Source: Octopus vulgaris (lineage: Eukaryota). Taken from it: DNA of 64,000 nt. Below, piece by piece: positions 3,295 through 52,604 of this stretch (positions are counted from its first letter, which is position 1; each line of letters opens with the position of its first letter). The translations under genes and the position numbers were made by a program. The notes below the pieces were generated by a model. The model did not search any database. It had not been told where the DNA came from and worked only from the letters and a program-made list of their open reading frames with translations. Location: positions 13,950,001-14,014,000 of the forward strand of contig OX597814.1 in assembly GCA_951406725.2 (NCBI GenBank), read 5' to 3'.

Positions 3295-4535
3295 TTAATT
3301 GTTTGTCGTAGACCCGTTAAGAAGTGGCCTGTATTTTGTAATAAAGAGATTTTCTTTACTTATTCGTTGTCTCGAGGTTGTATCGTCCCTAAATTGGTAG
3401 AGGGGGAACATCCTGAAGTTTGGTGTTTTTTTGTTGGCGCAAGTATCTATGTGTTGGCTAAAAGCTATTTTTCTGTTTTGGGGAATTTTTATCTGGGATC
3501 TGTGCAGGGCCATTCGTTTACGCAAACCATTTTTTGTTTGGCCTATGTACTGCTCCTGACACCCGGAGCAGGTTAGTGAGTATATTAGGTTCTCCGAAGC
3601 ACATGTGAAGTTGCTTTTCACTGTAAACCGTTGTCCCTGTTTGAAGGAGAACTCTGATCCCTCAATTAGATAGTCGCATATCCCGCAATTGGGTCTTCCA
3701 CATTTTTTTACTGTCGGCTTGTGTTGAAGAGTGAATTCGGGCTTGTGTTAGGAGACTTTTCATGGATCTAGGCTGTCTTTTGCTTTTTATGATCGTGTGT
3801 GTTTGGAGGATTGTGTTCATTCTGTGGTCTTTTTTTAGGAGGGGTATATTGTGGAGGATGTTGCCGAAGGCTTCGTTATTGGGAGGGTTGTGTGTGGAGA
3901 TGTATGGTAAGGCTTTTGGTTGTAAGTTTTTCTTTGATTTGGGATGTCTCAGTTCCTTGATGTTAAGTTGAAGGGCACGTTGAATGCACTTGCCAATAAG
4001 TGAAGGTGGATAGTTCGTGGTGATAAGGGTATCTTTTAGTTCTTGTAGTCGTGTGTCTCTGGTGTTTGCGTTAGAGACTATAGTGCATATCCTTTTTGCT
4101 AGATTGAAGGGGATATTCATCCTGGTGTGTCTGGGGTGGCATGAATTGAATGGAAGATATTGCTTAGAGTCTGTAGGCTTATAGTATATGTCTGTTTCTA
4201 TTATATTATTAGCTTTCTTAATGAGGATATCGAGGAAAGAGAGTTGTTGCTGGCTATATTCCATCGTGAATTGGATGTTTACGTCCAGTCCGTTTAAAAT
4301 TTCCTAGAATTCTATGAGTTTTTCTATATTTTTATGCCAAAGAATGAAACAGTCATCTAGATATCTCTTCCAGTTGTTTTCTATGTAGATGGAGAAAGGG
4401 CTGCCATATCTTTCTGGAACCTTACGATACAGACTGATCTGTAGGTATCCTATGACTAGGTTTGCAAAGGAGGGGGCCATTCGTGTACCCATCGCAGTCC
4501 CCGATTTTTGTCGGTAGAAGTTGTCATTGAAGGCG
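3295..4535 (-). pseudogene. PLE reverse transcriptase (motifs 4-7, thumb) plus GIY-YIG endonuclease, disrupted
   Basis: [32 protein letters not shown], linker CGRPNCGIC, then LIYSLTCSGCQEQYIGQT..H..H..E..LLN. One in-frame TAG at 4304-4306 and one frameshift near 3720. Confidence 0.93.
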
Positions 4536-9270: not shown

Positions 9271-9804
9271 TTGAAGAGAATACGAATGAGGGCAAAGTGT
9301 GTTCTCTTGACAGACATTTTCAACAGATTTGAGTTAGAGATTATCAAGTCTGCTCGAATGGAATATATCTACTTTCTAAGAATTTATGCTGTATAGCATT
9401 TTGTCTCCTTTATTCTCTTTCTGAAATCCATATGATTTGGTGACGAACGCTCTCTAGAATAACACGTCATGAACACAATTAGAGTAATATTAGTTGAATC
9501 TAACATTATATATTGTGAAACGTAACCATTTTCCCATGTATTTTAATTTCATAGATAGAGGAGCACGAACAATATATGTAATATTAGGACATTAGTAAAA
9601 TTTATGACTGTGATAGCATTTAAATGCATTCATTTACTTTCGTCTAATGAAACGCAAATCATATTCCGTTTTTGCAAAATATAATGCTGATATTTTAAAT
9701 ACTGAATGGCATGTCACTAATTTTCTTTCTATTGTTTATATCTTATACCAAATAGTAAATATAACGATTTCCCATTTTGTACAGAAACCCGAGGCTCTAA
9801 AAAT

Positions 9805-9851
<47 letters not shown>

Positions 9852-10009
9852 CTTTGCCACATACTGAACTCATTAGAAATAGCAGCTAAAAAACTTTTTT
9901 AAAACTATTTCTAATACTTAAAGAAAATCTCTCACATATAGTGTTTGCTCAATTCAACTCACGAAAGTATGGGGGTAAAGACATTAAAAAATCAAATGCA
10001 AAGGTTATT

Positions 10010-10061
10010 TGAGAACGTACGTTTCAAGATTAGTCAACTCGACATTTCTATCATCAGCTCA
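10010..10061 (-). ncRNA. Type-I hammerhead ribozyme motif (intact core and stem I)
   Basis: tgag-CTGATGA-t-aga.aat.gtc(gagtt)gac.taa.tct-t-GAAA-cgtacg-TT-ctca; palindromic stem III, predicted GUU cleavage site. Confidence 0.75.
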
Positions 10062-10636
10062 GAACTCCTTGGTTTGGATTTGAAAACACTGAAAGTGGGA
10101 GCATACCCTTTCGGCTTCTTATCGCTTCTGAAGATCTGCTCGAAACTAACAGTGCCAGCAAACCCAAGATATGCAAGCGAAGAATTTCTGCTCTCCCCTT
10201 TCCACCAGCGTGGGTTAAAATCAGCAAACACTATGCTTTTTCGGTAAAATCCGAGGCATTAAATAGAGAGAGATGAATTATAATTTCAACAATTGAGGGT
10301 AAAATTAATTAATTATTAATCAATTTCACCAAGTGTTCAGTATGTAAAGGGACCATTTAAGGCGAATTCAAATTATTACATTTTATATAAAAGGGCTTAG
10401 TAAAATAAATTACTTTGCCACATACTGAACTCATTAGAAATAGCAGCTAAAAAACTTTTTTAAAACTATTTCTAATACTTAAATAAAATCTCTCTCATAT
10501 AGTGTTTGCTCAATTCAACTCACGAAAGTATGGGGGTAAAGACATTAAAAAATCAAATGCAAAGGTTATGAGAGAGATTTTCTTTAAGTATTAGAAATAG
10601 TTTTAAAAAAGTTTTCAAATCCAAACCAAGGAGTTC

Positions 10637-10688
10637 TGAACTGATGATAGAAATGTCGAGTTGACTAATCTTGAAACGTACGTTCTCA
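10637..10688 (+). ncRNA. Type-I hammerhead ribozyme motif (copy 2)
   Basis: Same as 10010-10061 but the stem I 5' strand is tgaa. Confidence 0.7.
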
Positions 10689-11197
10689 AATAACCTTTGC
10701 ATTTGATTTTTTAATGTCTTTACCCCCATACTTTCGTGAGTTGAATTGAGCAAACACTATATGAGAGAGATTTTCTTTAAGTATTAGAAATAGTTTTAAA
10801 AAAGTTTTTTAGCTGCTATTTCTAATGAGTTCAGTATGTGGCAAAGTAATTTATTTTACTAAGCCCTTTTATATAAAATGTAATAATTTGAATTCGCCTT
10901 AAATGGTCCCTTTACATACTGAACACTTGGTGAAATTGATTAATAATTAATTAATTTTACCCTCAATTGTTGAAATTATAATTCATCTCTCTCTATTTAA
11001 TGCCTCGGATTTTACCGAAAAAGCATAGTGTTTGCTGATTTTAACCCACGCTGGTGGAAAGGGGAGAGCAGAAATTCTTCGCTTGCATATCTTGGGTTTG
11101 CTGGCACTGTTAGTTTCGAGCAAATCTTCAGAAGCGATAAGAAGCCGAAAGGGTATGCTCCCACTTTCAGTGTTTTCAAATCCAAACCAAGGAGTTC

Positions 11198-11249
11198 TGA
11201 ACTGATGATAGAAATGTCGAGTTGACTAATCTTGAAACGTACGTTCTCA
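11198..11249 (+). ncRNA. Type-I hammerhead ribozyme motif (copy 3)
   Basis: Identical to copy 2, 561 bp downstream. Confidence 0.7.
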
Positions 11250-11531
11250 AATAACCTTTGCATTTGATTTTTTAATGTCTTTACCCCCATACTTTCGTGA
11301 GTTGAATTGAGCAAACACTATATGAGAGATTTTCTTTAAGTATTAGAAATAGTTTTAAAAAAGTTTTTTAGCTGCTATTTCTAATGAGTTCAGTATGTGG
11401 CAAAGTAATTTATTTTACTAAGCCCTTTTATATAAAATGTAATAATTTGAATTCGCCTTAAATGGTCCCTTTACATACTGAACACTTGGTGAAATTGATT
11501 AATAATTAATTAATCTTACCCTCAATTGTTG

Positions 11532-11815
<284 letters not shown>

Positions 11816-30656: not shown

Positions 30657-31203
30657 TTATTTCTTTATTGCTCAAAAGGGGCTAAACACAGAGGTGACAA
30701 ACAAGGACAGACAAAGGGTTTAAATCGATTACATTGACCCAAGTGCGTAACTGATACTTAATTTATCGATCCGATATGATATAAGGCAAAGTCGACCTCG
30801 GCGGAATTGGAGATCAGAAAGTAACTCAGAAAATACCTATTTCTTTACTACCCACAAGGGGCTAAACACAGAGAGGACAAACAAGTGCAGACAAACGGAT
30901 TAAGTCGATTATATCGACCCCAGTGCGTAACTGGTACTTATTTAATAGATCCCGAATGGATGAAAGGCAAATTCGACATCGGCGCAATTTGAACTCAGAA
31001 CGTAGCAACAGGCGAAATATCCATTTCTTTATTACCCACAAGGGGCTAAACACAGAGGGAACAAACAAGGACAGACAAACGGGTTAAGTCGATTAGATCG
31101 ACCCCAGTGCGTTGCTGGTACTTATTTAATCGACCCCGAAAGGATGAAAGGCAAAGTTGACCTCGGCGGTATTTGAACTCAGGACGTAACGGCAGACTAA
31201 ATG
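30657..31203 (-). repeat. Three tandem ~183-bp units derived from the SINE family B body
   Basis: Repeated aggggctaaacacagag..gtcgatta..gaccccagtgcg..tgaaaggcaaa..gaactcagaacgta at 30657-30836, 30837-31021 and 31022-31203. Confidence 0.9.
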
Positions 31204-51963: not shown

Positions 51964-52200
51964 TGTAGTTTCCACCTGTCAAGAGTTCAGGAGGAACATA
52001 TATCGGGGCAACAAACAGAGATGAGGGCAGCAACATCAAACTCACCAAATATCACACATCACAGCAGGTTTAGCGATAATGTAGTTTCCACCTGTCAAGA
52101 GTTCAGGAGGAACCTATATCGGGGCAACAAACAGAGATGAGGGCAGCAACATCAAACTCACCAAATATCACACATCACAGCAGGTTTAGCGATAATGTAG
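51964..52200. repeat. 116-bp direct tandem duplication
   Basis: gtagtttccacctgtcaag recurs at 51965 and 52081; one mismatch seen. Confidence 0.95.
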
Positions 52201-52604
52201 TGTTGGGTACGTGCTTAGTAGTTAGCCGATGAAGCATGTTCTCTGCGTATGGCTACCTCATGTACTCCACGGTATTTACACAATTGTTGCAGGAATTTCT
52301 CAGTGTACGTTGGGTGTATAACATATGATAGACAGAGAAATGGAATATACGAGGAACTTTATTGTTCACAACGATCGTCTCGATCAATCCTACATCGATC
52401 TCTTGCGGGTGTAATATTGTGTAGCTGGTTGAGGTGCATTCCACTGTTCAGACATGTCACGTCAGGTGATCTTATAAGGGGTACTCTCACATAATGATGT
52501 AATGGACCTCCCTGGTTTCTCAAACGGTCTTAAGGATGAAAGGCACTGAAACAAAATTATAATAGTATACACACTCGTACACACACACAAACACGCAGAC
52601 ACAC

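What the first reader, a model, noticed from the sequence alone, without database searches (positions are those of the whole stretch)
10721..11066. The 561-nt unit folds into a nested, largely rod-like structure
Seen within one unit, properly nested complementary pairs: cgtgagttgaa (10735-10745) with tttaacccacg (11040-11050); agcaaacactat (10749-10760) with atagtgtttgct (11025-11036); gagagagat (10763-10771) with atctctctc (10985-10993); gttcagtatgt (10829-10839) with acatactgaac (10914-10924); plus a side hairpin attagaaatag (10783-10793) / ctatttctaat (10816-10826). Inference: this degree of self-complementarity is typical of retrozyme and viroid-like circular RNAs and independently supports an RNA-level function.
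Basis: partly seen in the sequence, partly recalled or inferred. Interest (0 to 1): 0.75.

Follow-up and report, generated by a model that had tools for sequence, protein, structure and literature searches.

The report
Folded hammerhead retrozyme with Penelope footprint
The base-paired stretch is real and is partly kept by paired changes across related repeat families; it is the body of a 561-base, protein-free jumping element with a predicted self-cutting RNA motif, a known kind of genomic parasite, whose back-to-back insertions suggest that a Penelope-type enzyme copies it into TA repeats.

Summary
All five helices are present and have high pairing probability in the circular fold. Folding beats shuffles: z -7.2 for the unit, -8.8 for 10721-11066, -4.8 for the minus strand. 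The fold is branched (10 hairpin loops), not a rod. The unit carries a Penelope-type minimal hammerhead; the genome holds 1,423 + 424 exact cores. Across 31 copies from six related families, 86% of cells in the five helices stay paired, with some two-sided changes. RNAalifold recovers the local helices and hammerhead stems but not the long-range stem. Of 85 inverted insertions with classifiable ends, 82 have one long and one short 3' end about 100 nt apart; 235 of 275 3' ends run into (TA)n. That is the Penelope 'tail' footprint, also seen in 4 of 5 inverted copies of intact Penelope-like elements here. Both 3' end sites lie inside the flagged fold. Verdict: a new member of the non-LTR retrozyme / non-autonomous Penelope-like class. 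Circular RNA, cleavage and the partner enzyme are untested.

The parts
9809..9849 (.). (TA)n microsatellite, left side of the insertion target
9843..10569 (-). Inverted arm: unit positions 6-561 (10569-10014) then 1-170 (10013-9843); its 3' end at unit 170 is slightly short of the usual short-end class (183-210)
10010..10061 (-). Predicted minimal type I hammerhead with the majority stem I (TGAG/CTCA); core CTGATGA starts at 10057; predicted cut between 10014 and 10013
10567..10615 (+). Junction fragment (unit 76-124) between the two arms, likely an extra template switch
10611..11539 (+). Direct arm: unit 488-561, full unit 1-561, then 1-296 (long 3' end)
10637..10688 (+). Predicted hammerhead copy 1 (core 10641-10647, GAAA ends 10676, palindromic helix III, predicted cut 10684/10685); carries a rare A in place of G that breaks the closing pair of stem I (TGAA in 3 of 148 copies, TGAG in 139)
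10685..11245 (+). Full 561-nt monomer between two predicted cleavage sites; no coding similarity to Penelope proteins
10721..11066 (+). Flagged domain: long interrupted stem (H1-H3 and outer CCCC/GGGG) closing a multibranch head
10783..10826 (+). Hairpin H5, 90% of cells paired across 31 copies, in the RNAalifold consensus
10829..10924 (+). Helix H4 closing an inner multiloop; two-sided changes A-U to G-C (8 copies) and U-A to C-G (6 copies); encloses the short 3' end site (unit 183-210, about 10867-10894)
10929..10961 (+).
11092..11185 (+). Long hairpin upstream of the hammerhead; 16 pairs tested, 93% of cells paired, 6 pairs with two-sided changes
11198..11249 (+). Predicted hammerhead copy 2 (core starts 11202; predicted cut 11245/11246), same rare stem I variant
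11536..11581 (.). (TA)23 microsatellite, right side of the insertion target

Best explanation
The flagged helices are the folded body of a 561-nt non-coding, hammerhead-motif-bearing repeat (a non-LTR retrozyme, likely a non-autonomous Penelope-like element) that is likely copied into (TA)n by a Penelope-type RT/GIY-YIG protein, which would start reverse transcription at two fixed sites inside this fold. Shown: the fold, the hammerhead motif and its covarying stem I, about 1,850 exact cores, tandem arrays, (TA)n targeting, and head-to-head arms that almost always have one long and one short 3' end. Inferred: (1) plus-strand RNA is transcribed from tandem loci and folds as predicted; (2) the palindromic helix III lets two hammerheads cut as a dimer, and monomers may circularise; (3) a Penelope protein nicks both strands of a TA repeat, and each nicked end primes internally on the RNA, one at unit ~183-210 and the other at unit ~296; (4) RT runs through the hammerhead, on a circle or on an uncut multimer, giving arrays of up to ~13.5 units; (5) the two 5'-truncated cDNAs are joined back to back.
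For: Fold z -7 to -9 on the plus strand and weaker on the minus strand in three families. Five helices: 86.1% of 1,494 cells paired, covariation 0.163 vs 0.129 (0/500 shuffles), slid controls 35-51% paired. Extended 96-pair model: 90% paired, 24 pairs with two-sided change (4/500). Hammerhead stem I TGAG/CTCA becomes CATG/CATG in family B, and one family has the U3-A8 core swap described for PLE hammerheads in PMC4209133. Pattern counts 1,423 and 424 against 0 and 2 for reversed controls. 82 of 85 classifiable inverted insertions are long+short, 0 of 176 insertions are tail-to-tail, 235 of 275 3' ends run into (TA)n. Intact Penelope-like families (781-aa and 775-aa ORFs; RT and GIY-YIG hits for each family) also end in (TA)n at two fixed sites, and 4 of 5 of their inverted pairs are long+short. 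Copies within one insertion differ by 0.7-1.0% against 6.6% between insertions. Published basis: tail on one end only and inverted 5' copy (Craig 2021); both strands nicked and extended, two internal RT starts giving the tail (PMC11167929).
Against: No autonomous element sharing sequence with the unit was found among about 100 Penelope-coding loci; the hits were nested insertions. The tail here is ~100 nt, against 30-40 nt in the literature and in the intact families here. RNAalifold does not recover H1-H3, and for the five helices alone the count of pairs with two-sided change is not beyond shuffles (11 vs 8.2, 31/500). Shuffle controls ignore relatedness. The G-U excess comes from A-U pairs (29 vs 8) and not G-C pairs (20 vs 14, p=0.39), so it may reflect A-to-I editing rather than selection. 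5' truncations do not pile up at the predicted cut site, so cleavage leaves no genomic trace. Hammerhead stem II has only ~0.2 probability in the monomer ensemble, the G10.1-C11.1 pair is replaced by U.U or A.A, and both plus-strand copies at this locus have a weakened stem I.
Confidence: 0.82

Rival explanations
1. The units are the pseudo-LTR of an autonomous Penelope-like family that I did not sample; the tandem and inverted copies are truncated by-products rather than a self-propagating non-coding lineage, and the fold is the RT-binding domain of that element.
For: The hammerhead is of the PLE minimal type (short stem I, long stem II, palindromic helix III; PMC4209133). The architecture is that of PLEs. 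Li 2026 derives retrozymes from pLTRs.
Against: Full head-to-tail units with no ORF occur in arrays of up to ~13.5 copies and in at least three families of 560-594 nt. None of the element-bearing loci had a Penelope ORF joined to the unit.
Confidence: 0.1
2. A viroid-like RNA replicon: the fold is selected for RNA-to-RNA replication or stability of a circular RNA, and the genomic copies are occasional retro-insertions.
For: Strong self-pairing (z -8.2 circular), a hammerhead at unit length, and related metazoan retrozymes accumulate as circles (PMC7229834).
Against: Branched fold with 63% pairing. The motif scan found hammerhead cores in one polarity of the unit only. The best-conserved helices surround the two 3' end sites. 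No RNA evidence.
Confidence: 0.05
3. A DNA-level foldback or satellite repeat whose complementarity comes from slippage and inversion in AT-rich DNA, with no RNA function.
For: AT-rich palindromic hairpins (H6); the minus strand also folds better than shuffles (z -4.8).
Against: Conserved hammerhead with covarying stems; plus-strand G-U bias; fixed asymmetric 3' ends with random 5' truncation, which is a retrotransposition footprint.
Confidence: 0.03

Closest known systems
Metazoan non-LTR retrozymes (Cervera and de la Pena 2020, PMC7229834; passages and section 14 seen, supplement not readable)
   Same: Non-coding low-GC tandem repeats with one type I hammerhead per unit, thousands of copies, predicted highly self-paired RNA, coexisting with autonomous PLEs; axolotl HHR_Amex2 also has a U.U mismatch at the base of helix II.
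   Different: Unit 560-594 nt against 170-400 nt; PLE-type minimal hammerhead rather than canonical; mostly inverted two-armed insertions in (TA)n (the word 'inverted' is absent from that paper's main text); circles not shown here.
Animal retrozymes as non-autonomous PLE derivatives (Li, Clavereau, Pollet 2026, 10.64898/2026.07.22.740005; parts 1-3 of 5 read, supplements closed)
   Same: Same class; unit length within their 51-972 bp range; proposed PLE mobilisation.
   Different: Their evidence is co-occurrence and pLTR homology, mainly in vertebrates. Here the evidence is the insertion footprint, and no homologous pLTR was found.
Penelope-like element pLTR/tail system (PAc, Frangieh 2024, PMC11167929, parts 1-2 of 4 read; Craig 2021, passages; Cervera 2014, PMC4209133, parts 1-2 of 4 read)
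   Same: Two internal RT start sites downstream of a hammerhead, tail on one end only, inverted 5'-truncated copy, AT-rich or microsatellite targets, minimal hammerhead with palindromic helix III and U3-A8 variant.
   Different: No ORF; tail ~100 nt instead of 30-40 nt; start sites are in AU-rich segments, not an AC-rich stem-loop.

Membership tests
Non-LTR retrozyme | Head-to-tail tandem units, each with a type I hammerhead | tested here: met
   Window and genome arrays up to ~13.5 units; 148 of 169 post-cleavage starts have an intact core upstream
Non-LTR retrozyme | No protein-coding capacity; low GC | tested here: met
   GC 0.33-0.34; no tblastn hit of two PLE proteins on the unit; the long ORFs I inspected beside copies were microsatellite or LINE sequence
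Non-LTR retrozyme | Stable, highly self-paired monomer | tested here: met
   z -8.2, -5.5, -6.1 for circular monomers of three families, 63-67% paired
Non-LTR retrozyme | Canonical hammerhead and 170-400 nt size as in the 2020 description | tested here: not met
   Minimal-type motif with 4-bp stem I, U.U or A.A at the base of stem II, 560-594 nt. It does fall within the wider 2026 definition (canonical or minimal, 51-972 bp)
Non-LTR retrozyme | Self-cleavage and accumulation as circular RNA | not testable with these tools
   Only contig-level runs, none on record as RNA
Penelope-like mobilisation | Two fixed 3' ends, tail on one end only, inverted 5'-truncated arm | tested here: met
   82 of 85 classifiable inverted insertions are long+short
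Penelope-like mobilisation | AT-rich or microsatellite target | tested here: met
   235 of 275 3' ends run into (TA)n
Penelope-like mobilisation | Sequence-related autonomous RT + GIY-YIG partner | tested here: inconclusive
   About 100 loci from two searches that scored 150 of 6,136 and 59 of 27,062 candidates; none shares its pLTR with the unit
Minimal type I hammerhead (PLE type) | CUGANGA and GAAA core, stem I 4-5 bp, long stem II, palindromic helix III | tested here: met
   the helix III segment is unfolded alone and self-pairs at -13 kcal/mol as a dimer
Minimal type I hammerhead (PLE type) | G10.1-C11.1 closing pair | tested here: not met
   Family A has U.U (110), A.A (35) or U.A (3) of 148; family B has G-C after a bulged base. 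No Rfam match at gathering score, and no hammerhead family among the 13 matches at E up to 10
Rod-like viroid-type RNA | Unbranched rod | tested here: not met
   10 hairpin loops in the circular MFE

The most novel reading that the evidence does not exclude
The flagged fold is a conserved RNA scaffold, kept across six retrozyme families at about 70% identity, that positions the two active sites of a Penelope RT dimer on two start points 100 nt apart on one circular RNA. Each nicked DNA strand is obliged to use a different start, and the element parasitises a Penelope protein with which it shares structure but no sequence.
Probability: 0.35. Interest if true: 0.68.

Novelty: new member of a known kind. 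Interest (0 to 1): 0.42.

Why it matters
How animal retrozymes get back into genomes has been proposed from co-occurrence and pLTR homology. Here thousands of young copies record the reaction: two fixed starts, nearly always one on each arm, into TA repeats, as with intact Penelope-like elements of the same genome. A covariation-supported fold around the two start sites gives a defined RNA substrate for testing how Penelope RT chooses internal start sites and whether it copies circles. The class is known, and other families in this genome show the same footprint according to earlier scan notes, so this family adds mainly the structural conservation.

Tried and rejected
Rfam: no match at gathering score in the window, and only chance-level matches at E up to 10 over 9800-11600. 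Expression: no RNA holder listed. Contigs of four runs guessed to be RNA cover the unit, and three of them do not cover the unique flank that a DNA-like run covers, but low-coverage DNA would look the same, so this is used neither for nor against. Partner search: a 381-aa frame beside one copy is microsatellite sequence; a 363-aa frame reads as an APE-type LINE endonuclease (my recognition, no database call) into which a copy inserted; the 781-aa and 775-aa Penelope families share no sequence with the unit. A DNA search with the tail alone returned no candidates, which shows nothing; a pattern in the tail gave 2,991 matches. Two-template idea (arms copied from different RNAs): within-arm 0.73% vs between-arm 1.04% mismatch in 35 insertions, p=0.18, not supported. 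Pile-up of 5' ends at the cut site: the 11 apparent cases mostly extend upstream into the hammerhead. Editing within insertions: A>G 16 vs T>C 27, no excess. Rolling circle versus uncut multimer template could not be separated. Literature: 7 searches; none of the listed papers that I read describes this family; 'retrozyme + cephalopod + circular RNA' gave 0 papers; an Octopus vulgaris repeat annotation has no 'hammerhead' or 'ribozyme' in its main text. The supplement of PMC7229834 (structures of invertebrate retrozymes), one file of PMC4209133 and all bioRxiv supplements were not seen and may bear on novelty.

Full report
Observation. The five complementary pairs are in the sequence as stated: four are perfect, and H1 has one mismatch and one G-U. 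They form in the predicted structure of both the 561-nt unit (z -7.21, 0 of 100 shuffles as stable) and the flagged 346 nt (z -8.76). Folded as a circle the unit gives z -8.2 on the plus strand and -5.0 on the minus strand, and the five helices have pair probabilities near 1 except at their ends. Eleven other microsatellite-free 346-mers from the window lie between -1.9 and +0.8. The shape is not a rod: 63% of bases are paired and there are 10 hairpin loops.

Anatomy of the locus. The unit sits in a 1.7-kb insertion inside a TA microsatellite. A minus-strand arm (9843-10569) and a plus-strand arm (10611-11539) lie head to head, with a 49-nt junction fragment between them. Each unit boundary carries a hammerhead-like motif: 4-bp stem I, CTGATGA, a long interrupted stem II, GAAA, and a palindromic helix III. 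This fits the minimal hammerheads described for Penelope-like elements (PMC4209133, parts 1-2 read), except that the base of stem II is U.U or A.A rather than G-C. Rfam does not detect it. Both plus-strand copies here carry a rare A that breaks the closing pair of stem I (3 of 148 copies, against 139 with G), so this locus may be a weaker cutter than the family.

Family. The genome (2.8 Gb, 227 contigs; an octopus by my recall of such genomes, not by any search) holds 1,423 exact matches to one core pattern and 424 to a second, with reversed-pattern controls of 0 and 2. Tandem arrays reach about 13.5 units. Following weak matches I found related families at about 70-82% identity, among them B (594 nt) and E (560 nt), whose circular folds give z -5.5 and -6.1 on the plus strand and -2.0 and -2.5 on the minus strand.

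Covariation. From 220 full-length hits (96 distinct) I kept 31 representatives at a 96% identity cut and aligned them. The stricter count of pairs with two-sided change is 11 against 8.2 (31 of 500), not significant. With the hammerhead stems and three further helices added, 24 of 96 pairs show two-sided change (4 of 500). These shuffles ignore relatedness. RNAalifold, unguided, recovers H4, H5, H6, the long upstream hairpin and hammerhead stems I and II, but not the long-range H1-H3; those are 77-90% paired and shift register between families. Stem I changes from TGAG/CTCA to CATG/CATG in family B, and one family has the U3-A8 core swap. Among pairs that are Watson-Crick in the window copy, G-U variants occur in 49 columns and A-C variants in 22 (p=0.002). 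The excess comes from A-U pairs (29 vs 8), not G-C pairs (20 vs 14), so selection and A-to-I editing are both possible; either implies a plus-strand RNA duplex.

Insertion footprint. From the loci fetched I kept 176 distinct insertions, dropping those within 120 nt of a locus edge or with end matches under 84% identity. Ninety-nine are head-to-head, 77 single-armed, none tail-to-tail. 3' ends fall into a short class (unit ~183-210) and a long class (~296). Of 85 inverted insertions with both ends in a class, 82 have one of each, 1 is long-long and 2 are short-short; 14 others, including this locus (170 + 296), have an off-class end. Some family B loci were found with a tail query, which favours long ends; family A gives 48 of 50. 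235 of 275 3' ends run into (TA)n. 5' ends are scattered and show no pile-up at the predicted cut. Copies within an insertion differ by 0.7-1.0%, against 6.6% between insertions. The short site lies inside helix H4 and the long site lies between H6 and H3, so the flagged domain contains both.

Partner. The genome has intact Penelope-like families with 781-aa and 775-aa ORFs. They also end in (TA)n at two fixed sites 35-40 nt apart, and 4 of 5 inverted pairs seen are long+short. The 781-aa family carries a U3-A8 hammerhead-like motif. Neither shares sequence with the unit; profile hits in those loci are nested insertions. The searches scored only a small share of candidates, so the partner is open.

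Mechanism. Published work shows that a Penelope protein nicks and extends both strands of AT-rich DNA and starts internally at two sites whose spacing gives the tail (PMC11167929, parts 1-2 read), and that the tail is usually on one end only (Craig 2021, passages). I infer the same reaction here: each nicked TA strand primes at one of the two sites, RT runs on through the hammerhead on a circle or an uncut multimer, and the two cDNAs are joined back to back. The fold is most likely the recognition and presentation domain for that enzyme, and may also stabilise a circle as in other retrozymes (PMC7229834). Cleavage, circularity and expression are untested; the sequencing runs available were contigs and not on record as RNA.

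Comparison and novelty. The element works like a Penelope pseudo-LTR without an ORF and meets the sequence-level criteria of non-LTR retrozymes in the wider 2026 sense, though not the canonical-hammerhead and size description of 2020. The class and the Penelope link are in print. I rate it a new member of a known kind, with interest 0.42.

Noticed in passing
window 3316-4531 (-), motif at 2635 (-): Broken Penelope-like ORF fragment (about 62% identical to the 781-aa family) followed by a hammerhead-like motif with a U3-A8-type core and palindromic helix III, ending in (TA)n.
   Followed up: partly
window about 2220-2450: Small element bounded by ~50-bp inverted repeats (MITE-like), next to the 3' end of that Penelope fragment; no hit to the retrozyme profile.
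   Followed up: partly
window 30659-31190: About three tandem 184-bp copies of a repeat that looks like a common SINE of this genome (label recalled, not tested).
   Followed up: no
window 57350 (-): Another hammerhead-like motif with a U3-A8-type core and palindromic helix III.
   Followed up: no
L327-L356 and L175: Very young Penelope-like family with a 775-aa ORF and an upstream ORF, many near-identical copies, tandem and inverted; an apparent hammerhead variant with a CCGAAGA core in its 3' region (seen by eye).
   Followed up: partly
L161-L174: Penelope-like family with a 479-aa ORF1 before the 781-aa RT/GIY-YIG ORF2, a U3-A8 hammerhead-like motif and a ~37-nt tail.
   Followed up: partly
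L001-L306: At least three further related retrozyme families (F, G, I and others at 65-82% identity) beyond A, B and E; many copies are short two-armed remnants without a hammerhead.
   Followed up: partly
window 51964-52201: Near-perfect 116-bp direct duplication.
   Followed up: no
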